Positions 2,524-29,657 of a DNA stretch of 45,108 nt are shown here, in pieces; the first letter of the stretch is position 1; the number at the start of each line of letters is the position of its first letter. This DNA is from a virus: UHGV virus genome UHGV-0324336; one strand, 5' to 3'. The notes below the pieces were generated by a model, which was given only the letters and a program-made list of their open reading frames with translations, was not told the origin of the DNA and did not search any database. The position numbers and the translations under genes were made by a program.

Positions 2524-3551
<1,028 letters not shown>

Positions 3552-3664
3552 GGATATTTATCAGGATTTATCGGCTTCAAATCCCCGGATATGTTAAATC
3601 TTACCTCACCAGTGATGGGCACTGGCGGGAGGAGGATGTCAATCTGATAAACACCGAGGCGACT

Positions 3665-3925
3665 ATGGATTACACAAATCTACCAAAACAAACTTTTGCT
3701 GATTTAATCGCACTCAGGCAAGCAGTCGTAGCTCTAATCAACTTGTTGCCGGAGAAGGAAAAGGAATTAGTTAAAGCGCTTCTTAACAGAACTGCCGCCG
3801 ATTTTTCATCATATCCACTGACAGATGACCTTGCGGACCTTCCTGAATTAATTGCAGCGTCCGCCATTAAGCTTACTGAAGAGATTTACCCTCCTCAAAA
3901 ATCTTCACAAAATTCCTGCGAGTAA
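3665..3925 (+). CDS. hypothetical 86-aa protein encoded antisense within the lysis cassette gap
   Basis: ORF track; GAGG 5 nt upstream of ATG; fills a 320-nt gap with no minus-strand ATG ORF; 3' end overlaps convergent 183-aa gene by 53 nt. Confidence 0.3.
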   Translation: MDYTNLPKQTFADLIALRQAVVALINLLPEKEKELVKALLNRTAADFSSYPLTDDLADLPELIAASAIKLTEEIYPPQKSSQNSCE

Positions 3926-4424
3926 CTTCAATGCAATAATCGTAAAACGCCGCAAACTGCTCATCGCGGCGTTTTTTTTCATCTTCAGAAGGAATCAGCA
4001 CCAACAATTTTTTATTCAGATCAGCGACGCTGCTCTCCAGTTTTTCAATGGGCGATTCAATATCATCTTTTTCTGACCGCAATGCCGTCGGTGGCGTCTT
4101 CAGAGAACCTGTAATTCTTCCCGGTAGCTTTCCTTTGTAGGTTATCCACACATTCTGCGCCTCTAAAATTACCGGGCGCTTTTCCGGCGACAGCTCATCT
4201 CCTTCACATAACCCGGCAGCAACATCCAGGAAGAACTGTCTGATGCTCCTTCTCGCTGCTGCCTCATAAAACTCCAGCGCGGCACCTTCAACACGGTCCA
4301 GCGAGATGTCCAAGCCAAAAATTTCACCGTCAAAGCGTTTTTTGTCCCGTAACGCTAAAGTTACCGTAACTTTATTCTCAAAATTGCGGATCCCTTTCAC
4401 AATCAGTTCATAGTTTTGAGTCAT
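3873..4424 (-). CDS. hypothetical 183-aa protein between holin and endolysin (YdfR position)
   Basis: ORF track; start 5 nt after holin stop; same position as ydfR between essQ and rrrQ in Qin; no motif recognised. Confidence 0.6.
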   Translation of the reverse strand: MTQNYELIVKGIRNFENKVTVTLALRDKKRFDGEIFGLDISLDRVEGAALEFYEAAARRSIRQFFLDVAAGLCEGDELSPEKRPVILEAQNVWITYKGKLPGRITGSLKTPPTALRSEKDDIESPIEKLESSVADLNKKLLVLIPSEDEKKRRDEQFAAFYDYCIEVTRRNFVKIFEEGKSLQ

Positions 4425-4428
4425 TGAA

Positions 4429-4644
4429 TTACTCTCCCCGTGCAGCCTTACGCTTGTCTTCTCTGATTTTGAAGTACAGATTTGTCAGATAAGTCAGGAA
4501 GCCCAGAACCAGACTCCCCAGTACACCAATCGCAGCCCACTGTGACGGACTGACCTGATCAAGCCACTGTAAAAACCAGTAGCCAGCACTGCCTGCGGAG
4601 GTGCCGTAGGCAATGCCCGTTGAAATTTTGTCCATGGATTTCAT
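4429..4644 (-). CDS. class II pinholin, phage 21 S-like (dual-start MKSM)
   Basis: 71 aa; MKSMDK dual-start motif and two TM segments essentially as in S21 (recalled); directly upstream of SAR endolysin. Confidence 0.9.
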
Positions 4645-4935
4645 AGCCTCACCTCCGCAAATAACGGATGGCGTAGTTTTACACTGAGAAATGAAAGGGA
4701 TTTGAAAAGAAAAAACCGCAAAAGCGGGCGAAACGATATATACAGAAAGGAAAGCACTCTATCCAACAAACCACCCACAGTTAATCGGAATAAAAGCAGA
4801 GTGCTTATGAATGATCGCCTGCCCGAAGGTTAGTATTTCTGCACAGCAATTTTGCAAAAAAAGGCGATCATTCATAACTTAAACGTCTTTCAGTCACTCC
4901 GGGATTTCCCATCATCGCAGACTGAAAGACTCTAA

Positions 4936-5011
<76 letters not shown>

Positions 5012-5013
5012 AT

Positions 5014-5090
<77 letters not shown>

Positions 5091-5091
5091 A

Positions 5092-5168
5092 CTGGACCGC
5101 CACCGGGGACTCGAACCTCGCACACTCAACTTAAAGGGTTGACGCTCTTTCCTGATGAGCTAGTGGCG
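5092..5168 (-). tRNA. tRNA-like gene with atypical anticodon loop (CCUUUAA; Lys-UUU-like but C33); possible pseudo- or non-canonical tRNA
   Basis: Manual fold: acceptor CCGCCAC/GTGGCGG, D-arm GCTC…GAGC, T-loop TTCGAGT, CCA encoded, but position 33 is C and T-stem has an A·C mismatch. Confidence 0.5.
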
Positions 5169-5169
5169 G

Positions 5170-5245
5170 CTGGTGGCCCTTGCTGGATTTGAACCAGCGA
5201 CCTGGCGATTATGAGTCGCTCGCTCTCACCACTGAGCTAAAGGGC
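5170..5245 (-). tRNA. tRNA-Ile2/Met type (anticodon CAU), ileX/ileZ-like
   Basis: Manual fold: GGCCCTTTAGCTCAGTGGTGAGAGC…CTCATAA…GGTTCAAATCC…GGGCCACCA; closely resembles recalled E. coli ileX (lysidine tRNA-Ile2). Confidence 0.75.
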
Positions 5246-5351
5246 CGGGCGCAGGATAATAACGTTACGAAATCAATGTTGCAAGCATTCAAAAATCACC
5301 CTTATCTCCTCCACCAGCGCATTCACCATGTCTATCCGAGATAAGTGGCAC

Positions 5352-5373
5352 AAAAAACCCGCTTGTGGGCGGG
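5352..5373 (-). terminator. intrinsic terminator (tR'-like) downstream of the late promoter
   Basis: Minus strand reads CCCGC-ccacaa-GCGGG followed by TTTTTT; lies ~50-70 nt downstream of the predicted late promoter. Confidence 0.55.
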
Positions 5374-5428
5374 TTTTGTTTGCTTTTGCCATCACGTACA
5401 AAATCGGCAAAATATCAGATTTGCATGA

Positions 5429-20762: not shown

Positions 20763-20966
20763 ATGAGCAGCTTATTTTTAACCGAAGATGAATTGCTAAT
20801 ATTAACGGGCTGCAAATATGCAAGCCACCAGCGAAAATGGCTAATGGAAAACGGGCTTCCGTTCTATACCAATCGTAGTGGCAAACCGATTGTCAGCCGG
20901 AATCTATTTACCTGCAATAAAACTTTACCACCACGCGAGGTAGAGCCGAATTTTGGTGCGATCTGA
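20763..20966 (+). CDS. DUF4224-like small protein in excisionase position
   Basis: 67 aa MSSLFLTEDELLILTGCKYASHQRKWLMENGLPF…; stop overlaps int ATG (TGATG). Confidence 0.5.
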   Translation: MSSLFLTEDELLILTGCKYASHQRKWLMENGLPFYTNRSGKPIVSRNLFTCNKTLPPREVEPNFGAI

Positions 20967-21289
20967 TGGGAAGACGAAGGAAAAATCCTGAACACGAAAA
21001 ATTACCTCCAAATGTATACCCAAATAAATATAGTTATGTATGGAAACCAACATCCAGAGAATCTGTCACACTAACCGCCATCAAGGATGGTTTAGCTGCT
21101 TTATGGAAAAAGTATGAGGAAACTGTAAATAATCGCGATCGTGCAATGACATTCGGTCGCTTGTGGGAAAAATTCCTCGCCAGCGCCTATTACAGTGACC
21201 TTAGACCGATGATACAGAGTCGAAAAATCAAAGAGTTAAAAATTTTTCTTGGAATAAATGTCTTAAAATCGTACACGAAAAATCAATGA
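20966..21289 (+). pseudogene. int: integrase N-terminal fragment (arm-binding domain only; truncated tyrosine recombinase)
   Basis: MGRRRKNPEHEKLPPNVY… aligns with lambda Int N-terminus (MGRRRSHERRDLPPNLY…) but ORF stops after 107 aa; no catalytic domain (R..HxxR..Y) in any frame before the next gene. Confidence 0.75.
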
Positions 21290-21513
21290 ATTACATAACA
21301 TTAAAGAAGAATATTCCAAGCCTTCTTGAGTCTACCACCTGTTTTCAGGTGTCATTCAGACGTGATTTGCCCCAGATTGGGAAAGCACGCTTTTTTCTCA
21401 GCTTATTCCATTTTGCCTGTGTGTTGAATAATTCCACTGCAGTTATATAAAATCGGTAACGGCTGGAAATAATTCAATACTCGTACTATCGAAAGTTAAC
21501 CAGCCAGCCGCAG

Positions 21514-21552
21514 TATCCTATCATGACAAGTTACTGCGGCTTTTTACTTTTT
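21514..21552 (+). terminator. hairpin plus T-rich tract at int/tail-fibre junction
   Basis: AGCCGCAGTA-(14 nt)-TACTGCGGCT followed by TTTTTACTTTTTA on + strand. Confidence 0.35.
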
Positions 21553-21556
21553 ATAT

Positions 21557-21859
21557 TTAACGGATCAACATCCAGATCAGCAGACACGCCACCACCGGCA
21601 CAGCAAAATCCATCAGGCTTGCCACATCCCACGCGCGCGGATCAAAACCGCCCCACCACGGCATATTCATACGCTTGCCATGCCCGAACATTTCAATCCA
21701 GCGATATTCTGCCTGGGTGTGTTCACGCGCAATGAAGAACGTACAACCGGCTATCGCCCCGTAAGCCCAGTTCCCGGTAAAAAGACCAATCAGTAGCTGC
21801 GCAGCCACAGCACAAAGCGCATGAAGGAAAGGTGTTATATCCATTTTCATCCTACCCAA
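21557..21859 (-). CDS. small integral membrane protein downstream of tail-fibre genes (function unknown; exclusion candidate)
   Basis: 100 aa with several hydrophobic segments; 27 nt after the preceding fibre gene, last gene before the int fragment. Confidence 0.5.
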   Translation of the reverse strand: MGRMKMDITPFLHALCAVAAQLLIGLFTGNWAYGAIAGCTFFIAREHTQAEYRWIEMFGHGKRMNMPWWGGFDPRAWDVASLMDFAVPVVACLLIWMLIR

Positions 21860-21886
21860 TAAAACGGGGCGCTCGGCCCCTTAATA

Positions 21887-22927
21887 TTATTTAGACGCAA
21901 GCGCCGCCTCAATTGCAGATAATCTTTGTCTTAATTCTGCGTTTTCTTCTTCCAGTGCTGTTATTCTGTCGTCTGACTCTCTGGCTACCTGAACAAGCAA
22001 GCCAGTAATACCAGAATAATCTACTGTGTAATAACGTTCACCTTCTTCACCTTCCGATCCGCTTGCACCGTCCTGATATTTCATTGCGGAACCTACAACT
22101 TCCGGGATTGCTTCCAGAGCTTCCTGTGCAATGACACCAGCATAGGGCATACCGTTTTCTTTAAGCGTGTATGTATAGCCGTTCATTTTACGGATGCGGT
22201 CGGTTGCATTATCGATCACCTGAATGTTGTCTTTCAGATCCCGGTCGGAATGCTGGTTAAATGCGGTGGCATGACATGCACCATTAACGCTTAACATATA
22301 GGTGTTATCGGTATTTTTCTGCGCATAGAACATATAAGCGCCACCATCAACACCGACTTCATAAACAACAGGACGGCTGGAGTTGCCCCACAATCGAGCA
22401 GTAACACCAGCATAAGCGGTTCCCCGTGTGTTTAATGTCATGGTTGACCCATGATTGGCATATTTGATCTGTAATGTGTCGGTGTAATCAAATTTAATAA
22501 GCGCGTTACTTCCACGCTTGCTGTATGACATAAGGCAGTTACCCATTTTGAGGTATCCGCTGTCACCGGGAAAAATCATCGTACCGCCATAAAGGTTGGT
22601 AAAGTCCCAGCAAATGTTTGTCCCGTTATCGTTCAGGTTAAGGCGCGCCATTGCGTTACCTGGACTGTCTATCCATTTTTTGAGGTATAGTTCGCAATAC
22701 GCATCCTCAACACCTGCCGTCCTGTGAGTTGAGCGGAGTTTTCTCCCAAATATAGCTCCGCTAGTTGGCAATACCTGCTGATACCATGAAGCAGACCAGT
22801 CACCAACGATTTCATCTTTGCTGTCTACATATAATTTTGTTGCGTAGCTTCCTTGATCGTTTTTTAATTTGCTAACGTCGGATTTTAGCGTTTTGATGTC
22901 ATCAGGAATTACTGTCGATGTAGCCAT
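21887..22927 (-). CDS. tail fibre/spike-like protein with C-terminal S74 intramolecular-chaperone autoprotease domain
   Basis: C-terminal S-D-R-D-L-K-D-N-I motif (Ser-Lys dyad of endosialidase-type chaperone domains), then coiled-coil tail ITALEEENAELRQRL. Confidence 0.65.
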   Translation of the reverse strand: MATSTVIPDDIKTLKSDVSKLKNDQGSYATKLYVDSKDEIVGDWSASWYQQVLPTSGAIFGRKLRSTHRTAGVEDAYCELYLKKWIDSPGNAMARLNLNDNGTNICWDFTNLYGGTMIFPGDSGYLKMGNCLMSYSKRGSNALIKFDYTDTLQIKYANHGSTMTLNTRGTAYAGVTARLWGNSSRPVVYEVGVDGGAYMFYAQKNTDNTYMLSVNGACHATAFNQHSDRDLKDNIQVIDNATDRIRKMNGYTYTLKENGMPYAGVIAQEALEAIPEVVGSAMKYQDGASGSEGEEGERYYTVDYSGITGLLVQVARESDDRITALEEENAELRQRLSAIEAALASK

Positions 22928-22936
22928 TTTTCTTCC

Positions 22937-23218
22937 TCACATCCAGCCACGAAGTTGATGCTCAACAGCAACCACGTATTCATCGAATAATGACGATATT
23001 TGCGAATCATTAATGATGCGCACGTTTACAAAATATCCGTCTTCCTTAACACATACCGGTTCGCCATCTTCAGTCAGTTCTCCGGTTTCTTTGTACACGT
23101 TACCTATCACGTCAATAAGAATATCATCCTGCATCGACTCGTCATCATAATAGCCAATACTCTCCATAAAGGCCGAAAAGTCGGCCCTGTCGGCAAATTT
23201 GAGTGTTAAATCTTTCAT
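22937..23218 (-). CDS. small acidic protein translationally coupled to stf (possible fibre assembly factor)
   Basis: 93 aa; start overlaps stf stop (TAATG); 9-nt gap to next fibre gene; not lambda Tfa. Confidence 0.45.
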   Translation of the reverse strand: MKDLTLKFADRADFSAFMESIGYYDDESMQDDILIDVIGNVYKETGELTEDGEPVCVKEDGYFVNVRIINDSQISSLFDEYVVAVEHQLRGWM

Positions 23219-25452
23219 TAGATTGACTCCCCCACCTGAGCATCAGTCAATGCCTTGTGCCATATTCTGAAATTCCTGACATGACCAAATAAATGACGTA
23301 ACCCGGCTGTAGTCTGACCTCCAATACGGATAATTGCGGTGTTCTGAATACAGGACCATGTGGTTTTTGTTTCGCTGGATATATGCCCGTTACTTACTGA
23401 GCACGTAGACTGCTCTGACTTTACACGCATCCCCATAACCATTTTTTCAAGCGATGCGTTTTCGTTTACCCGTCTGCTAGCTCCTCCAATATCGCAATAA
23501 GGAAATCCGTCGTAATCTGTTGAACGACCGAAGCCAAGAATAATAGCCGCTCCGGTTTGATGACCGCCGGTATCAAAAACACGTGGCGCTGCATTTGGCG
23601 TTTTATACCAGTTCTTATGTACCTCACAAAGAACCGTAAAAGGAAGATTATAAAGATTATTCTTAATTGGAACTGTAACTATATCGCTTGCGCGGGTCGC
23701 CGCCGTCGCTCCTGATATAATAAAAGATGATACACAAGGCCCATCTTCTACTTGTGGGGTGGCCAGATAAATATAGTCACCAGATACGGTTGCCCCGCTC
23801 TGCTTAGGAGAATACTGTATCTGAGAGCCTATTTTTAACTCCCCATCAATTGCCTGAATTGTTGCCTCTGCAAAAATCCATCCGGTAGCTTCGTCCTTTC
23901 TGACTCTCGCTGTAATCCTTGAGGCAGCACCGCCTGTCATATTAATTTCAAGCGTTTGTGTATCAATATACGCATCACCAAGAAAAGTTGTTGCGCTACC
24001 GTCATATTTATCAAACCGGATACGCAACCTTACCTGCAGTTCTGTTTTAAAACGACATGAGGTTGTCACGTGTTTATTATCGCCTGAGACATCAACTGAC
24101 TTTGTTGCAGCAATTGATGCCATATTAATGGCTGAGGTTTGCCCAATCAGAGAATCGTTGCAGACAAACTTTCCATAGGTAAAACCAAAATTATCCGTCC
24201 CTGTTTCGGGCACATCCATATTTGACGATCGCCCCCAACTGGCAGGGCTTTCCGAATTGAGCATGTAGTTTGTTCTTTGCCCCTCAATAAGCAGGCCATC
24301 ACGTTCAAATCGTGGCTCGTCAATGGCAGCCTCTGTCAGCACACCAGATTTATTAATATAGGTTGCTTTCGATGCACGTTTAAACTTAACAATCTTGTCG
24401 CCAGGCATCGTTATTTCGTCGTCACCAATAACAATCTTTTTATATGATGGCGAAAAGCCCGTAATCATATCCAGTGAATCGTTAAACGGTATCCACACAT
24501 CAGGCAGCGGCTGTAAGACATATTTATACGGATCTGCTGCCTGGCTTGCATACTCTCTGGCTGCGTCTTCACTTGCTTTTGCAGCGGTCTGGCTTGCAGC
24601 GGATGCTTTCGCCGAGTTGGCCGCCGCAGTTTCGCTGGCTTTGGCATTCGTTTCGCTGGTCTTCGCTGCCGTCTGGCTGGACTTTGCGTTAGTTTCACTC
24701 GTCTTCGCAGCTTTCTGGCTGTTAGCCGCAGCAGTTGCTGATCCAGCTGCTGAAGTCGCAGAACCGGCTGCCGCGCTCTCGCTTTGGGCTGCTGCAACCT
24801 GGCTGTTTTTTGCCGCAGTTTCACTGGCTTTGGCATTCGTTTCGCTGGTTTTCGCTGCCGTCTGGCTGGACTTTGCGTTGGTTTCGCTCGTCTTTGCGGC
24901 TGTCTCGCTATTTTTCGCGTTGGTTTCTGATTTTTTGGCTGCTGTCGCGGAGTTTTCTGATGCAGTCTGTGAGGTCGCTGCCGCCTGTGCACTATTAGCT
25001 GCATTCGTTTCTGAGGTTTTCGCCGCGTTCTTCGATGATGCCGCTGCAGTTTCGGATTTCTTTGCCGCCGCTGCGCTCTGAGAGGCGGCTTCGGCGTTGC
25101 GTGCCGCTTCTTCCACCATTTCCTCAAAACGACGCAATGCCTCCGGCATGACATCATCTTCCGTCATGGCACCGAGAAAATCATTCAGCGTACCTGGTCT
25201 GGAACCTTCATAGACGGTAATGGTTCCGGCATGTGAAGGCGGAAAACCTTCAACAAGCAGGATAACGCTGTACTGGCCATACTCAACATCCATGCTGTAA
25301 CGCCCGGCTTCATCCGGATTTTCAGAGGCCACCGTGTTCACCAGTACCGTGGTGCTGTTACGCTTTGCCTTCAGTTGAATAGTGCAGTTCTGTATTGGTT
25401 TTCCCGCACCATCTTTCAGCACACCTGAGATTTTTACTGCTGCCATATCCAC
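23218..25452 (-). CDS. stf: side tail fibre Stf (lambda-like N-terminus, non-lambda C-terminal LamG/ConA-like lectin domain)
   Basis: N-terminus MAVKISGVLKDGAGKPIQNCTIQLKA… matches lambda Stf; Ala/Ser/Thr-rich helical repeats; C-terminal …LFGHVRNFRIWHKALTDAQV typical of LamG-type domains. Confidence 0.8.
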   Translation of the reverse strand: MDMAAVKISGVLKDGAGKPIQNCTIQLKAKRNSTTVLVNTVASENPDEAGRYSMDVEYGQYSVILLVEGFPPSHAGTITVYEGSRPGTLNDFLGAMTEDDVMPEALRRFEEMVEEAARNAEAASQSAAAAKKSETAAASSKNAAKTSETNAANSAQAAATSQTASENSATAAKKSETNAKNSETAAKTSETNAKSSQTAAKTSETNAKASETAAKNSQVAAAQSESAAAGSATSAAGSATAAANSQKAAKTSETNAKSSQTAAKTSETNAKASETAAANSAKASAASQTAAKASEDAAREYASQAADPYKYVLQPLPDVWIPFNDSLDMITGFSPSYKKIVIGDDEITMPGDKIVKFKRASKATYINKSGVLTEAAIDEPRFERDGLLIEGQRTNYMLNSESPASWGRSSNMDVPETGTDNFGFTYGKFVCNDSLIGQTSAINMASIAATKSVDVSGDNKHVTTSCRFKTELQVRLRIRFDKYDGSATTFLGDAYIDTQTLEINMTGGAASRITARVRKDEATGWIFAEATIQAIDGELKIGSQIQYSPKQSGATVSGDYIYLATPQVEDGPCVSSFIISGATAATRASDIVTVPIKNNLYNLPFTVLCEVHKNWYKTPNAAPRVFDTGGHQTGAAIILGFGRSTDYDGFPYCDIGGASRRVNENASLEKMVMGMRVKSEQSTCSVSNGHISSETKTTWSCIQNTAIIRIGGQTTAGLRHLFGHVRNFRIWHKALTDAQVGESI
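24623..24900. repeat. two ~89-bp near-identical direct repeats 189 bp apart inside stf
   Basis: GCCGCAGTTTCGCTGGCTTTGGCATTCGTTTCGCTGG… at 24623-24711 and 24812-24900; encode repeated AAKTSETNAKxS units. Confidence 0.7.
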
Positions 25453-25510: not shown

Positions 25511-26110
25511 TCAGAATTTATAACCGACACCCACGATGAAACCGTCAGTGCGCCAGTCACCACTGCCGGAACCTTCATAAGCAAGGTCAATGGCCACGGA
25601 TTCGGTCGGGTTAAACTGCACGCCAGCCCCCCACGCCAGAGACGTGTTGCTGTGGCGACCGTCATCACTTCCGGTCAGCACATCGTGCGTTTTCCCCTTG
25701 TTGTCAGTTACGCGGAGATAATCCCCGGAGAAGGTCGACACACGGCTGTAAGCCATACCCGCCATCGCATAAGCACTGAACCATTCATTCACGCGTACAG
25801 ATGGCCCCGCCATCATGCTGAACCAGCGGTTACGCACGGAATCTTCATGCCAGCGGGTATCGCTGTAATGCGTTTTTTGCTCATCTTTGGCATTGGCATA
25901 ACTGAATGACGTCACCAGCCCCAGCGTGTCCGTAAATTCATAACGGTATTTCACGTTAATGCCCTTCAGGTCATCACTGCCTGGCATATCAGTATGGGTC
26001 TGAAGATACCCGGCGCTTAGTGTGGACTGATGCTCTGCTGCGCTCGCTGGCGTACCAGCGGCAACCAGCCAGACTACTGCGGACAGAATAACAGCACATA
26101 ATTTACGCAT
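25511..26110 (-). CDS. lom: Lom outer-membrane protein (Ail/PagC family)
   Basis: Signal peptide then beta-barrel OMP sequence ending …GVGYKF; position after J as in lambda. Confidence 0.85.
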   Translation of the reverse strand: MRKLCAVILSAVVWLVAAGTPASAAEHQSTLSAGYLQTHTDMPGSDDLKGINVKYRYEFTDTLGLVTSFSYANAKDEQKTHYSDTRWHEDSVRNRWFSMMAGPSVRVNEWFSAYAMAGMAYSRVSTFSGDYLRVTDNKGKTHDVLTGSDDGRHSNTSLAWGAGVQFNPTESVAIDLAYEGSGSGDWRTDGFIVGVGYKF

Positions 26111-26177: not shown

Positions 26178-29100
26178 TCAGCTGATACTGATGCCTGCGG
26201 TGGCTTTCTTCATCACCACAACCAGCAAATCGCTGATACTTGCTGTGGGATACCAGTCATTTACCAGCCATGCTGACACCGAAAACTCCAGCGTCATGTG
26301 ACCGTGACCGGCAGGCATATCAATAACGCCACTGTAAATCAGCGTATTATCCAGCGCGGTACGGTTATAAATTTCAGCACCGTTTTTCCGCACTATCAGA
26401 CGGCATGAGGAGTAAATATCAGTATGCTCTCTCTCATGTTTAGCGCCGCTGAATGCCACCGCCGGAATAACAATCTGCCGGTCAAACGGCTGATCGTCAT
26501 AAATCCTGACGGTAATGGTCCCTGATGGCCACCGTTCCGGTGCACGGGAGTCCCGGGGGAAAGCTTTGCCCACTGTTTTAACGAGATCGCCTTCAATCTG
26601 GTTCGCGGACAGTTTTCCCAGAACCCGGCAGTTCTCGTTAATCGTGACGTTGTTGAGCGTCCCGGAGTTCGCATTCACGTTACCGCTGATATCGGCATTT
26701 TTCGCCGTCAGCCGCCCGTCCGGTGTCAGGGAAAATGCCGGAGGATTACCGCCGCTGGTAATGGTGGGAGCCGTCAGATATTTCAGGAACACTTCATTCA
26801 TAAATATCTGATCGCCCTGACCAACAAACATCGGCTTTGTGTTGCCATTCGCAGGATTAACCATCGCAATCCTGTCCGCCGCCAGCAGCACCTGACTCTG
26901 CATGCCGTCAGGGGTGTTCTCAATACCGGCACCAATACCCGCGATATAAAGGCGTCCGTCCTGCATCTGCTGCAGCTTCACAGCCCACATGCTGTTCAGG
27001 TTATTATTTGTATCAACCTGAACCTTCTGTATCTGCTGAATTGCCGCACTCTGGTCTTCCAGTTTCTTATTGACGGTCTGCGTGATTTCATTGCTGACAT
27101 CCGTAATGGACGTCCTGATTTCAGCCAGGTCAGGCGCAAGCTGACCGTTATCAATCTGCGTCCACAGCTCCTGAGCCAGATGGCTTTTCCCTATCTCGCC
27201 TTTGAAAAAATCCAGATAGCCGGATGCATCATCACTCGGCTGGCCAACAGCCTCCACAAATGCCGATTTGCCAACGGTGTTCACACTGCGGATGTAAAAA
27301 TAATAATCATGGCCCGGTTTGATATTGATACTGGCAGCTATCCAGTACAGCGCCGTGCCAAGATAGCGGGCTGTGGTTTCAACCTGCCTGATATCCGCAA
27401 TCCGCTTTTCCGAGAACCAGAACTCAAACTGTACCGTCGGATCATAAACGGCAAGATGCGGCGTGGCGGTTATCTGAAAATAGCCCGGCGTCAGCTCAAT
27501 CCGCGACGGCGCTGCCGGTGCGGCAATACGGAACGATACCGATGCCGGATCGCCCTGCTGCCCCCAGGCATTTGCCGCCCGGACTGTCAGCCTGTAGTTT
27601 CCCAGCGCCAGTTGCGTGAAGCGGTATGTGGTTTCCGTCGTCCGGGCCGTGCTGACCAGCCGCTCACTGCCGTCATCCGCTGCCACGGTCAGGCGAAGCA
27701 GGAAGCTCACGCCCTTCACCACCTTCGGTGTGTCCCATCGCGCCAGCACCTGATATTCCCCGCTGTCTGCAGTGACTTCTGCGGTCAGGTGCTGCACCGC
27801 TGGCGGCGTGACACCATTCACCGTGCCACTCTGTTCGCCGTCAAAGTGCGCCCCGTTATCCACGATGGCCTCTTTTTCCGGCACATGCTGCACGGCGGTG
27901 ATGGCATACGTGCCGTCGTCGTTCTCACGGATACTCACGCAGCGGAACAGTCGCTGGCGCAGCGTCGGCAGCTTCAGCCCCCATACGCTGTATTCAGCAA
28001 CACCGTCAGGAACACGGCTCACTTTTACCTTCACGCCGTCGGTGACGGACTGAACCTCCACGCTGACCGGATTGCCACTTCCGTCAACCAGGCTTATCAG
28101 CGTGGTACCGGAGGATGGCAGCGTGATTTCACGGTCGAGCGTCAGCGTCCGGGTCTGGCTGTTCACCGCCAGCACGCGACCACCGGTGCTGATACCGGCA
28201 TAGTCATCATCGCAGATTTCAATAACATCGCCCGGCACATGGCGAAGCCCTTCTGCGCCCACGCTGAAATCCACGGTCTGCGTTTCCAGCAGTTCCGTTT
28301 TAATCAGCCACAGCCCGGCGCGGTGTGCCTGCCCCCGGCTGGTACAGCCAAAGGCATCCATCTTCGTGACATTACGACCGTAACGGGCAATGGCCTGCGT
28401 ATCTTCAACAAGCTCTGTCGCCGTCTCCCAGCCGTTGTTCGGGTCAATCCAGTTCACCTCAACGGCATTATGGCGGTCCTTCAGGGCGCTGAAGCTGTAG
28501 CGGAACGGCGCGCCATCATCCGGCATCACCACATTACTGCGGTTATAGGTCCACACCTTATCCGACTGTCGGTCCTGCACGAACGTCAGCGTCTGCCCGT
28601 TCCATACCGGCATACAGCGCATCGCCGAGCAGAAATCACTGAGCACATCCCACGCCTTGCGCTGTGTGGTCAGGTACGCATTACAGGTGATGCGCGGCTC
28701 CGTGCCGCCAAAGCCGTCCGGCACTGACTGGTCGCAGTACTGGCCGATGACATACAGCGCCCATTTGTCCACATCCGCCGCACCAAGACGTTTCCCCATG
28801 CCGTAGCGCGGGTGGGTCAGCATATCCCACAGACACCAGGCCATGTTGTTGCTGTATGCTGGTTTTAACGTTCCGTCCCAGATACCGCTGTATTGTCGCG
28901 TCTGTGGGTTATAGTTCGACGGCACCTGCAGAATGCGCCCGCGAAGATGATAATTACGGCTCACCTGCTGGCTGCCGAACTGCTCCGAGTCCACCTGTAC
29001 GCCGACCAGTGCCGTGTTCGGGTAGCACTGTTTCACATCGATGATCTCGGTGTATGACGACCAGAGCGTTTTGTTCTGCAGCTGGTCTGTGGTGCTGTCC

Positions 29101-29657
29101 GGCGTCATCCTGCGCATCCGGATATTGAACGGGCGCGGCGGCAGGTTATCCACCACCACCGAGGCCAGATACTGCGAGGTGGTTTTGCCCTTAATGGTGA
29201 TGTCTTTTTCCGTCACCCAGCCACCGTTACGCTGTATCTGAACCAGCAGGCGGACTTCCGACGGATTCCTGTCTCCCTTTGAGGTGGTTTCCACCAGTGC
29301 CTGTACACCGAAGGTAAAGCGCAGACGGTCGATGTTTGCCGACGTGATGGTCCGGGTGATCGGCGTTTCATATTTCACTTCCGTACCGAGCACCGTCTCG
29401 GAACCGGAGGATTCAAATCCCTCCGGCGGTGACTGCTCCTGCTCACCTGCCCGGAACACCACCGTGACGCCGGAGATATTGGTATTCCCCTCACTGTCCA
29501 GCACCGGCGTACTGTTCAGCAGCACGCTTTTTAATCCATCCACCGGACCTTCAATCGGCCCTTCGCTGATGGCATCAATCGCACTCAACAGCTGCGTGGA
29601 TTTCAGGTTATCTTTCGCTTCGCGCGGGGTATGCCCCTTACTGCTGCCTTTACCCAT
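26178..29657 (-). CDS. J: tail tip/central fibre protein J (lambda-like N-terminal ~1000 aa, divergent C-terminal receptor-binding region)
   Basis: Starts [24 protein letters not shown]… as lambda J; 1159 aa vs 1132 in lambda; C-terminal ~150 aa differ from recalled lambda J. Confidence 0.9.

What the first reader, a model, noticed from the sequence alone, without database searches (positions are those of the whole stretch)
21557..21859. Small membrane protein as the last gene of the fibre operon: possible receptor-blocking exclusion factor
A 100-aa polytopic membrane protein lies 27 nt downstream of the second fibre gene and next to the int fragment. Phages often place receptor-masking genes right after their receptor-binding genes (T5 llp, phi80/HK022 cor), which makes this a superinfection-exclusion candidate.
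Basis: inference. Interest (0 to 1): 0.45.

Follow-up and report, generated by a model that had tools for sequence, protein, structure and literature searches.

The report
Conserved membrane protein trailing phage receptor-binding genes
The small gene is real and belongs to a widespread, completely uncharacterised family of three-helix inner-membrane proteins that sits directly behind the receptor-binding (tail fibre/spike) gene in many unrelated phages, but its features argue against the proposed receptor-masking role and for a receptor-independent job at the inner membrane.

Summary
The ORF at 21557..21859 (-) is real. Its likely start is the ATG at 21844, giving 95 aa. It is under purifying selection (dN/dS 0.14) and belongs to PHROG 1443 (function unknown). 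It has no Pfam, NCBIfam, PADLOC or PDB relative, no source name beyond 'hypothetical'/'Ybl63', and no literature.

AlphaFold gives a confident three-helix membrane bundle.

Homologues lie directly 3' of the receptor-binding gene or its chaperone, often with overlapping stop and start codons. This is seen in lambda-like, P22-like, P2/HP1-like, phiHAP-1, BPP-1-like DGR, gpJ-type and tailspike phages of Alpha-, Beta- and Gammaproteobacteria and Desulfovibrio.

A Cor/Llp-type receptor mask is unlikely:
- There is no signal peptide or family-wide lipobox.
- Almost nothing is predicted to face the periplasm.
- Identical alleles follow different fibre tips.
- Identity is about 55-65% across genera.
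- No promoter of its own was found.
- Orphan copies sit in conserved non-phage chromosomal synteny in Aeromonas, Leclercia, Silvania and sphingomonads.

It is not the holin: the window has its own lysis cassette.

Best guess (about 0.35): a late-expressed, receptor-independent inner-membrane factor acting after adsorption, in exclusion or envelope conditioning. The function is untested.

The parts
21557..21844 (-). Gene X: 95-aa three-helix inner-membrane protein (PHROG 1443; 'Ybl63' in some UniRef entries). The mechanical ORF with a TTG start extends to 21859.
   Evidence: start and family. (AF2, pLDDT 92, helices 4-23, 26-53, 74-94). (dN/dS 0.14). (homologues).
21850..21853 (-). Shine-Dalgarno AGGA, 5 nt before the ATG at 21844
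   Evidence: Read from the sequence. Phage 21 annotators mark an RBS at the equivalent place.
21858..21880 (-).
   Evidence: scan. (fold, -17.1 kcal/mol; z only -1.3, so modest).
21506..21555 (.). Strong hairpin (10+5 bp) just 3' of gene X. On the + strand it is followed by TTTTTACTTTTTAT, making it a tI/sib-like terminator for transcripts coming from xis/int.
   Evidence: z -3.8 on the - strand, -2.8 on the + strand. HK97 has an annotated sib site at the equivalent place between tfa and attP.
21887..22927 (-). Second fibre gene (346 aa) with a C-terminal Peptidase_S74 intramolecular chaperone domain
   Evidence: PF13884, 6e-14. (PHROG 4563 tail fibre, 1e-219).
22937..23218 (-). 93-aa protein (PHROG 1361, function unknown). 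It lies between the side tail fibre and gene X in every E. coli lambdoid locus examined and may be a fibre chaperone (inference).
   Evidence: present in 9 of 9 annotated E. coli-type loci.
23218..25452 (-). Side tail fibre (744 aa): phage_tail_N domain, Ala/Ser/Thr-rich repeats and a GTA_spike_fiber-like C-terminal domain
   Evidence: PF08400, 5e-67. (NF048003). (PHROG 1419).
20966..21289 (+). Integrase N-terminal fragment. The gene lacks about 900 bp relative to E. coli noe1104.
   Evidence: PHROG 22903..
2524..4644 (-). The phage's own lysis cassette: holin 4429..4644, endolysin 3018..3551, Rz 2524..3021 and Rz1 2574..2870. This shows gene X is not the holin of this phage.

Best explanation
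Gene X encodes a small integral inner-membrane protein.

Predicted structure and topology: a TM1-TM2 hairpin, an amphipathic extension carrying the near-invariant motif G-R-E-x-x-Q-A-E-Y-R-x-I, a Trp-rich loop, then TM3. The N-terminus and the conserved loop most probably face the cytoplasm, and almost nothing is exposed to the periplasm.

Expression: it is carried as the 3'-terminal passenger of receptor-binding-protein modules. In phages it is made from the late tail-fibre transcript, frequently by translational coupling.

Proposed action: its target is independent of which receptor the neighbouring fibre recognises. The most likely role is to change a conserved property of the cytoplasmic membrane or envelope-precursor machinery, so that the producing or carrying cell becomes refractory at a post-adsorption step such as DNA entry or a membrane event. 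That would be an inner-membrane-level exclusion or envelope-conditioning factor, not a receptor mask. Bacteria appear to have kept stand-alone copies.

Shown here: gene reality, fold, family, synteny, lack of co-variation with the fibre tip, chromosomal orphans.

Inferred: topology, late-only expression, the protective or exclusion function, and the direction of transfer.
For: Family and fold:
- PHROG 1443.
- AF2 model with pLDDT 92 and three helices.
- GxxxG-type glycines in both TM1 and TM2, and near-invariant H8, R40, E41, Q44, A45, E46, R58, W72, D79 and P83 across 93 diverse members.

Topology: mean K+R counts are 5.46 in the loop and 0.48 at the N-terminus, against 0.09 in the TM1-TM2 turn and 0.66 at the C-terminus.

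Position directly after a receptor-binding gene or its chaperone in unrelated phages:
- E. coli lambdoids and the phage-plasmid PhiR41_1.
- P22-like JEP4, 4-nt overlap with the tailspike gene.
- phiHAP-1, 4-nt overlap with the fibre-assembly gene, followed by the sheath gene.
- Aeromonas HP1/P2-like prophage, 4-nt overlap.
- Chelativorans, Leclercia and Desulfovibrio fibres and spikes.
- DGR cassettes, between the Mtd-like gene and avd.
- gpJ-type Comamonas and Pantoea phages.
- Cobetia phage Carin-5, between spike genes.
- Metagenomic viral contigs of 36-65% GC.

Receptor independence: identical X alleles follow different fibre-tip clusters. Mean identity is 94% between different-tip contexts and 96% within the same tip.

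Autonomous value to cells:
- Conserved phage-free synteny in 5 Aeromonas species, 5 Leclercia genomes and 3 Silvania-type loci, and next to ligA or pnp in sphingomonads.
- These clades nest among phage copies in an NJ tree.
- An intact copy persists in the heavily decayed Rac remnant of BL21 and behind an IS-disrupted stf in SMS-3-5.
- X is present in 1924 of 5426 complete E. coli genomes.

Known small inner-membrane proteins in tail regions do block DNA entry, for example HK97 gp15 and T4 Imm (established knowledge).
Against: - No experiment and no informative homologue exists, so the function is inferred from position and conservation only.
- Known injection-stage exclusion proteins are narrow in range, whereas X is conserved across classes and across all three tail types. 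A single universal entry target is hard to name.
- Overlap with the upstream gene, the lack of a detectable sigma-70 promoter and an upstream terminator-like hairpin all argue against expression in lysogens, where exclusion genes normally act.
- X also occurs in phages that appear to be virulent (lifestyle not verified here): Carin-5 and the Aeromonas jumbo phages.
- Topology is uncertain. The phage 21 annotators' TMHMM run gave 2 TMDs, N-in/C-in, which would put the loop in the periplasm.
- The near-invariant His/Glu/Asp/Arg cluster could equally mark a small enzyme or a metal site.
- The NJ tree on about 95 residues is weak evidence for the direction of transfer.
Confidence: 0.35

Rival explanations
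1. X is a small membrane enzyme, or a metal- or lipid-binding protein, with a cellular housekeeping-type role. An example would be action on a lipid-linked phosphate or glycan carrier at the cytoplasmic face. Phages would carry it as an auxiliary gene, and its place behind the fibre gene would only reflect that the 3' end of the late operon tolerates cargo.
For: - Near-invariant H8, R40, E41, Q44, E46, R58, D79 and P83 across 93 sequences at 27% mean column identity. These lie at one membrane face in the AF2 model.
- Stable chromosomal orthologues sit next to ligA, pnp, pirin and RIO1 with no phage genes nearby.
- About 60% identity holds across genera.
- X is independent of fibre type.
- DgkA shows that a roughly 120-aa, 3-TM protein can be an enzyme (established knowledge).
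Against: - No conserved operon partner in the chromosomal loci.
- Cargo tolerance alone does not easily explain stop/start overlap with the receptor-binding gene in many independent lineages, or positions in the middle of tail modules, as in phiHAP-1 and Carin-5.
- The polar cluster could be a structural salt-bridge network.
Confidence: 0.25
2. X is a lysis accessory protein, such as an antiholin, a holin modulator or a releasin-like factor, made late.
For: - It is a small 3-helix membrane protein in the late operon.
- In gpJ-type Comamonas and Pantoea phages and several viral contigs the order is RBP - X - holin - endolysin.
- In L160 it lies about 370 nt upstream of (not adjacent to) an endolysin carrying an N-terminal TM segment, i.e. 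SAR-like.
- In Aeromonas phage 62AhydR11PP it sits beside PHROG 1544 and PHROG 3108 proteins, which flank lysis genes elsewhere.
- T7 and T4 place their holins right after the fibre genes (established knowledge).
Against: - In the window the holin, endolysin and Rz/Rz1 cassette is 17 kb away.
- In P22-like, P2-like, phiHAP-1 and DGR contexts no lysis gene is adjacent.
- Separate holins are present where X abuts a lysis cassette.
- X has no charged C-terminal tail and no dual-start motif.
- Orphan chromosomal copies conserved across species are unexpected for a lysis factor.
Confidence: 0.12
3. X helps the neighbouring receptor-binding protein to fold, trimerise or join the virion, as a membrane-bound assembly factor.
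For: Tight adjacency and translational coupling to RBP or chaperone genes in many lineages.
Against: - The partner RBPs are structurally unrelated: S74 fibres, P22-type spikes, P2 H, gpJ and Mtd-like proteins.
- Identical X alleles follow different tips.
- Dedicated chaperones (a tfa-like gene, the 93-aa gene, the S74 domain) are already present.
- An integral membrane location is odd for virion assembly.
- Orphan chromosomal copies have no RBP nearby.
Confidence: 0.08
4. One reading: X masks or inactivates the outer-membrane receptor used by this phage's fibre, as Cor and Llp do.
For: Its position after the fibre genes and next to att matches that of cor in HK022. It is a small protein. Prophage copies are widespread.
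Against: - No lipoprotein signal, whereas Cor has an LSGC lipobox. BLASTP finds no similarity at E<=100.
- It is predicted to be an inner-membrane protein with minimal periplasmic exposure.
- There is no co-variation with the fibre tip.
- It is conserved across hosts whose receptors differ.
- It is coupled to late genes and no promoter was found.
Confidence: 0.05

Closest known systems
PHROG 1443 (phage protein family, function unknown); some members are named 'Ybl63' in UniRef
   Same: Full-length profile match: E 4.9e-58, residues 6-100 against profile positions 1-95 of 97. Size and position match those in phage 21, Lambda_2E9, HannyBb, Tritos and mEp460.
   Different: Nothing differs; this is its family. 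The family has no assigned function, no Pfam model and no literature.
Cor (HK022, phi80, N15, T1) and Llp (T5): receptor-inactivating exclusion lipoproteins
   Same: They are small proteins encoded next to receptor-binding genes. In HK022, cor lies between J and att/int, as X does in lambdoid phages.
   Different: - Cor has a lipoprotein signal (MKRLIICIAGALMLSGC) and acts on FhuA at the outer membrane. X has no such signal and is a 3-helix inner-membrane protein.
- No sequence similarity was found.
- Cor and Llp are receptor-specific, whereas X does not co-vary with the fibre tip.
- Llp was not compared by sequence here.
HK97 gp15 and T4 Imm: small inner-membrane proteins that block phage DNA entry
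   Same: They are small inner-membrane proteins. gp15 is encoded inside the tail gene region. They work after adsorption, which is the step favoured here for X.
   Different: - gp15 is 62 aa with one TMD, lies before the tape-measure gene and is flanked by its own annotated putative terminators, and it shows no similarity to X.
- No Pfam family of any kind was matched by X, which on my recollection includes a T4 Imm model.
- Both are narrow in range and are expressed early or from the prophage, whereas X looks like a late gene.
Class I holins (lambda S; T7 gp17.5 and T4 T as holins placed right after fibre genes)
   Same: X is about 100 aa with three helices, is a late gene, and sometimes lies immediately upstream of a holin-endolysin pair.
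   Different: - Separate holins exist in those cassettes, and the window has its own holin.
- X has no charged C-terminal tail.
- X has a strongly conserved polar loop.
- X has chromosomal orphan copies.
The P2 Z/fun slot (cargo position between tail-fibre assembly gene G and sheath gene FI)
   Same: In phiHAP-1, X occupies exactly this position, between the fibre-assembly gene and FI.
   Different: This is a positional analogy only, recalled from knowledge of P2. No sequence comparison was made.

Membership tests
PHROG 1443 | Full-length match to the family profile | tested here: met
   E 4.9e-58, 194 bits, residues 6-100 against profile positions 1-95 of 97.
Cor-type exclusion lipoprotein | N-terminal lipoprotein signal peptide with a lipobox | tested here: not met
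   HK022 Cor has LSGC at residues 14-17. In X the only lipobox-like strings (IAGC 31-34, VVAC 84-87) lie inside helices. There is no positively charged n-region, and C34 is present in only 15% of the family.
Cor-type exclusion lipoprotein | Sequence similarity to Cor | tested here: not met
   BLASTP of X against HK022 Cor finds no alignment at E<=100.
Cor-type exclusion lipoprotein | Inactivates the receptor (FhuA) and so blocks adsorption | not testable with these tools
   This needs adsorption and plating assays.
Llp (T5) receptor-blocking lipoprotein | Lipoprotein signal, and specificity for the receptor of the adjacent RBP | tested here: not met
   No lipoprotein signal. Identical X alleles follow different fibre tips. 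No direct sequence comparison with Llp was done.
HK97 gp15-type injection blocker | Sequence similarity and single-TMD architecture | tested here: not met
   No BLASTP alignment. gp15 is 62 aa with one N-terminal hydrophobic segment, whereas X has three helices.
T4 Imm (a Pfam model exists on my recollection; its presence in this copy was not checked) | Match to the family profile | tested here: not met
   No Pfam family was matched at E<=0.01. The Imm model is not among the weak matches listed for 93 members at E<=10 (only the top 25 of 42 families were shown).
Holin (class I) | Small protein with TMDs encoded next to the endolysin, acting as the phage's holin | tested here: not met
   The window's holin (4429..4644), endolysin and spanins lie 17 kb away. 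Where X abuts a lysis cassette, a separate holin sits between X and the endolysin. Only 1 of 93 members gives a weak Phage_holin_8 match.
Holin (class I) | Hydrophilic, charged C-terminal tail | tested here: not met
   The protein ends 0-6 residues after TM3. Mean C-terminal K+R is 0.66.
Known anti-phage defence proteins (PADLOC-DB 2.0) | Match to any defence-system profile | tested here: not met
   0 families at E<=1.
Moron (autonomous promoter-gene-terminator unit expressed from the prophage) | Own promoter upstream of the gene | tested here: inconclusive
   The consensus scan found no sigma-70-like site on the minus strand just upstream. In JEP4, phiHAP-1, L008 and L035 the start overlaps the upstream stop codon. 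A promoter inside the upstream gene cannot be excluded without transcript data.

The most novel reading that the evidence does not exclude
X is a previously unrecognised, pan-proteobacterial phage late protein that is functionally coupled to receptor-binding modules of all three tail morphotypes. It would be a minimal inner-membrane 'lock' or small enzyme whose cytoplasm-facing H/RE/QAEYR/D site changes a universal membrane or lipid-carrier step, making a cell refractory to phage entry whatever the receptor. Bacteria (Aeromonas, Leclercia, Silvania, sphingomonads) would have repeatedly domesticated it as a one-gene defence.
Probability: 0.2. Interest if true: 0.8.

Novelty: new variant of a known kind. 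Interest (0 to 1): 0.55.

Why it matters
Gene X is present in about 35% of complete E. coli genomes, with up to seven copies per genome. It follows the host-range determinant in lambda-, P22-, P2- and BPP-1-like phages and in many uncultured phages, yet it has no name, no Pfam family and no literature.

If it controls what happens after adsorption, through exclusion, entry or envelope conditioning, it would be a receptor-independent layer of phage-phage competition. That would bear on phage therapy, on prophage-mediated resistance and on engineering of receptor-binding modules, because X would be co-transferred whenever fibre modules are swapped.

If it is instead a minimal membrane enzyme, it would be among the smallest known.

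Either way, the conserved synteny gives a practical handle. X marks the 3' boundary of receptor-binding modules in unannotated phage genomes.

Tried and rejected
Searches that found nothing:
- Pfam, NCBIfam and PADLOC scans of the protein: no hit.
- Pfam scan of 93 family members at E<=10: only scattered chance-level matches to PhoR, VirB3 and cytochrome b561.
- Profile search of all PDB sequences: 0 hits at E<=10.
- Foldseek against BFVD: nothing at E<=0.001.
- The afdb50 library was not available.
- Two searches of the large protein database, one with a profile of distant members: every hit is 'hypothetical' with no Pfam domain.
- Cluster look-up: the only name is 'Ybl63'.
- Literature searches for Ybl63, for accession numbers, and for tail-fibre-adjacent exclusion or membrane proteins: nothing relevant.

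Hypotheses considered and rejected:
- Holin: rejected.
- Lipoprotein: rejected.
- Cor and gp15 homology: rejected.

Noted but not pursued:
- A resemblance of 'MPWWGGFD..W' to the WWD motif of haem-handling proteins (CcmC/CcmF). This is recalled from memory, has no profile support, and the loop is predicted on the wrong side of the membrane.
- The DgkA analogy (smallest membrane kinase) is conceptual only.

Method limits:
It was redone with the family ORF forced in.
- The first IMG/VR scan returned only near-identical E. coli copies, so single distant queries were used instead.

Full report

The window is a complete lambda-like genome read in reverse. Terminase lies near 42.5-45 kb, gpJ at 26178..29657, lom at 25511..26110 and the side tail fibre at 23218..25452, all on the minus strand. 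A recE-like exonuclease, xis and an integrase fragment are on the plus strand.

The ORF at 21557..21859 (-) exists, with a TTG start and 100 aa. It begins 27 nt after the stop of a 346-aa fibre gene that carries a Peptidase_S74 chaperone domain. The integrase fragment lies 267 nt beyond its stop.

The family profile (PHROG 1443, E 4.9e-58) starts at residue 6. RefSeq and the phage 21 annotators start at that Met. The TTG lies in the U-tract of a hairpin, and an AGGA sits 5 nt before the ATG at 21844. The real gene is therefore most likely 21557..21844, encoding 95 aa.

It is a genuine gene. Among 55 distinct E. coli alleles dN/dS is 0.14. There are 566 homologues at E<1e-3. A profile search of 1.84 billion representatives finds 440 clusters, all single-domain proteins of about 65-145 aa.

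**2. The protein**

AlphaFold2 on a 33-sequence alignment gives pLDDT 92 and three helices at residues 4-23, 26-53 and 74-94.

Hydropathy shows two strongly hydrophobic segments and one moderately hydrophobic, Gly/Ala-rich one. G20xxxG24 in helix 1 and G29xxxG33 in helix 2 fit a tight transmembrane hairpin.

Across 93 diverse members (27% mean column identity) three positions are invariant: R40, E41 and W72. H8, Q44, A45, E46, R58 and P83 are conserved at 90% or more, and D79, R48 and Y47 at 81-86%.

Mean K+R counts by segment are:

| Segment | Mean K+R |
|---|---|
| N-terminus | 0.48 |
| TM1-TM2 turn | 0.09 |
| Conserved loop | 5.46 |
| C-terminus | 0.66 |

By the positive-inside rule the N-terminus and the loop are cytoplasmic, and only a few residues face the periplasm. 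This is an inference. The phage 21 record quotes a TMHMM result of two TMDs, N-in/C-in, which would put the loop outside.

The protein has no lipoprotein signal.

**3. What it is related to**

Nothing with a known function. The following all came back empty or uninformative:
- Pfam, NCBIfam and PADLOC.
- PDB sequences.
- Source names, apart from 'hypothetical' and 'Ybl63'.
- The literature.

**4. Where it occurs**

The X coding sequence alone matches 1924 of 5426 complete E. coli genomes, at 3973 places and up to 7 copies per genome. It also matches 73 phage records.

(a) Phage contexts. X is directly 3' of a receptor-binding gene or its chaperone in each of these:
- E. coli lambdoids: stf, then a 92/93-aa gene, then an optional S74 fibre, then X. 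Examples are phage 21, Lambda_2E9, HannyBb, PhiR47_1 and the SMS-3-5 prophage.
- The 108-kb PhiR41_1.
- P22-like JEP4: tailspike then X, with a 4-nt overlap, then att/int.
- Halomonas phiHAP-1: fibre-assembly gene then X, with a 4-nt overlap, then the sheath gene.
- An Aeromonas HP1/P2-like prophage: H-type fibre then X, with a 4-nt overlap.
- Chelativorans: a PHROG 5939/1419 tail protein then X, with an overlap. Leclercia: a 720-aa fibre or spike. Desulfovibrio: a 935-aa tailspike with a 0-nt gap.
- Comamonas nitrativorans, Pigmentiphaga and two viral contigs: X next to Avd in DGR cassettes. In three of these four loci an Mtd-like PHROG 2889 gene lies upstream; in L163 the contig starts there and only an 83-aa ORF is seen upstream.
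- gpJ-type Comamonas, Pantoea and Acidovorax phages: J, a small gene, X, holin, endolysin.
- Cobetia phage Carin-5: tailspike, X, fibre, tailspike.
- Viral contigs of 36-40% GC: a collagen-like fibre or a tfa-like gene, then X after 2-3 nt.
- The siphophage HC6: a decayed remnant of X trails the tailspike.

Exceptions, where no fibre is evident upstream, are Aeromonas phages 62AhydR11PP, 4_4512 and AVP1.

(b) Chromosomal contexts with no phage genes and conserved synteny:
- Five Aeromonas species: pirin, X, RIO1, then two lipid-A acyltransferase genes.
- Five Leclercia genomes.
- Three Silvania-type loci.
- Sphingomonads, next to ligA, pnp or a PhyH gene.

In a neighbour-joining tree the gamma-proteobacterial chromosomal clades nest among phage copies. 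This is weak evidence because the sequences are short.

**5.

- Cor of HK022 occupies a similar map position but is a lipoprotein (MKRLIICIAGALMLSGC...) and shows no similarity to X.
- HK97 gp15 is also unrelated.
- A receptor mask should track receptor specificity. Among 85 E. coli loci, identical X alleles follow two different fibre-tip clusters (227-234 aa and 309-347 aa). X identity averages 94% across different upstream genes and 96% within the same type.
- X remains 55-65% identical in genera with different surfaces.
- No sigma-70-like promoter was found just upstream. A terminator-like hairpin precedes X in the window. In several lineages the start codon overlaps the upstream stop codon. 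X therefore behaves as a late, co-translated cistron rather than an independent moron, although a promoter inside the fibre gene cannot be excluded.

**6. Is it the holin?**

No. The window has a holin (4429..4644), an endolysin (3018..3551) and Rz/Rz1 (2524..3021 and 2574..2870), 17 kb away. Where X abuts a lysis cassette, a separate holin lies between X and the endolysin. A lysis-modulating role remains a minor rival.

**7. Best reading**

X is a receptor-independent inner-membrane protein that travels with receptor-binding modules and is made with them late in infection.

Three observations suggest it has an autonomous, cell-level effect that is not harmful:
- Stand-alone chromosomal copies have been retained repeatedly.
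- An intact copy persists in the heavily decayed Rac remnant of BL21.
- An intact copy sits behind an IS-disrupted stf in SMS-3-5.

I therefore favour, at about 0.35, a post-adsorption exclusion or envelope-conditioning function exerted from the cytoplasmic face of the membrane. The rivals are:

| Rival | Confidence |
|---|---|
| Small enzyme or metal-binding housekeeping-type protein | 0.25 |
| Lysis accessory | 0.12 |
| Fibre assembly factor | 0.08 |
| Cor/Llp-like receptor mask | 0.05 |

None of these has been tested experimentally.

**8. Novelty and score**

The gene is common and already catalogued as a PHROG of unknown function. What appears to be undescribed, within the literature I could search, is its synteny with receptor-binding genes across morphotypes and bacterial classes, its receptor independence, and its chromosomal orphans. 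Interest 0.55. I class it as a new variant of a known kind: an accessory membrane protein linked to receptor-binding genes but unlike Cor, Llp, Imm or gp15.

Noticed in passing
window 20966..21450: The integrase is only an N-terminal fragment (107 aa). Compared with E. coli noe1104, which has the same xis-int-X arrangement but a frameshifted int, the window lacks about 900 bp. Similarity to int-bearing phages stops near 21207 and similarity to the X flank resumes near 21444. This phage or prophage therefore looks unable to integrate or excise.
   Followed up: partly
window 21506..21555: A strong hairpin lies directly after gene X. On the + strand it is followed by TTTTTACTTTTTAT, so it looks like a tI/sib-type terminator or retroregulator for int transcripts. 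HK97 has an annotated sib site at the equivalent place.
   Followed up: partly
L038 5947..6300, L039 5947..6300, L170 8001..8609, L163 364..639: In BPP-1-like diversity-generating retroelement cassettes, gene X is inserted directly upstream of avd. In L038, L039 and L170 an Mtd-like variable receptor-binding gene (PHROG 2889) precedes it; in L163 the contig starts too close to tell. An RT-sized ORF lies downstream in L038 and L039.
   Followed up: partly
L170 8001..8609: Here X reads through into a 202-aa ORF with an extra C-terminal membrane domain containing the motif 'LDxxST...G..ELNP'. This may be a natural fusion, or a missed stop or start in my ORF call.
   Followed up: no
L175 (Escherichia phage HC6) 3465..3620: Only a decayed, unannotated remnant of X ('...ANIPWWGGFDWRAWDLPSLLD') trails the 859-aa tailspike. 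This suggests X was carried in with the spike module and then lost.
   Followed up: partly
L001 (phage 21) 1445..4894; L002 (Lambda_2E9): In phage 21 and several wild lambda-like phages, the sitABCD manganese/iron ABC transporter operon sits immediately beyond gene X on the opposite strand, as cargo in the b-region.
   Followed up: no
window 22937..23218: A 93-aa protein (PHROG 1361, function unknown) lies between the side tail fibre and X in every E. coli-type locus examined. gpJ-type phages have a different small protein (PHROG 5084) at the same place. These may be fibre chaperones.
   Followed up: partly
window 24395..25157: The Ala/Ser/Thr-rich repeats of the side tail fibre (AAKTSETNAKSSQT...) create long spurious ORFs on the opposite strand and in other frames (228 and 230 aa).
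   Followed up: no
window 3873..4424: A 183-aa gene of unknown function (PHROG 2091) is inserted between the holin and the endolysin of the lysis cassette.
   Followed up: no
L182 (E. coli BL21) 3976..5424: The Rac remnant of BL21 keeps only a fibre C-terminal piece, the 92-aa gene, an intact X and a tfa fragment next to pinR. From memory, K-12 Rac has stfR-tfaR at this place instead.
   Followed up: no
L172 (Aeromonas phage 62AhydR11PP) 2499..3780; L164 8270..8752; L006 8970..9521: PHROG 1544 and PHROG 3108 proteins (function unknown) recur next to X and next to endolysins in unrelated phages. They may be undescribed lysis-cassette components.
   Followed up: partly
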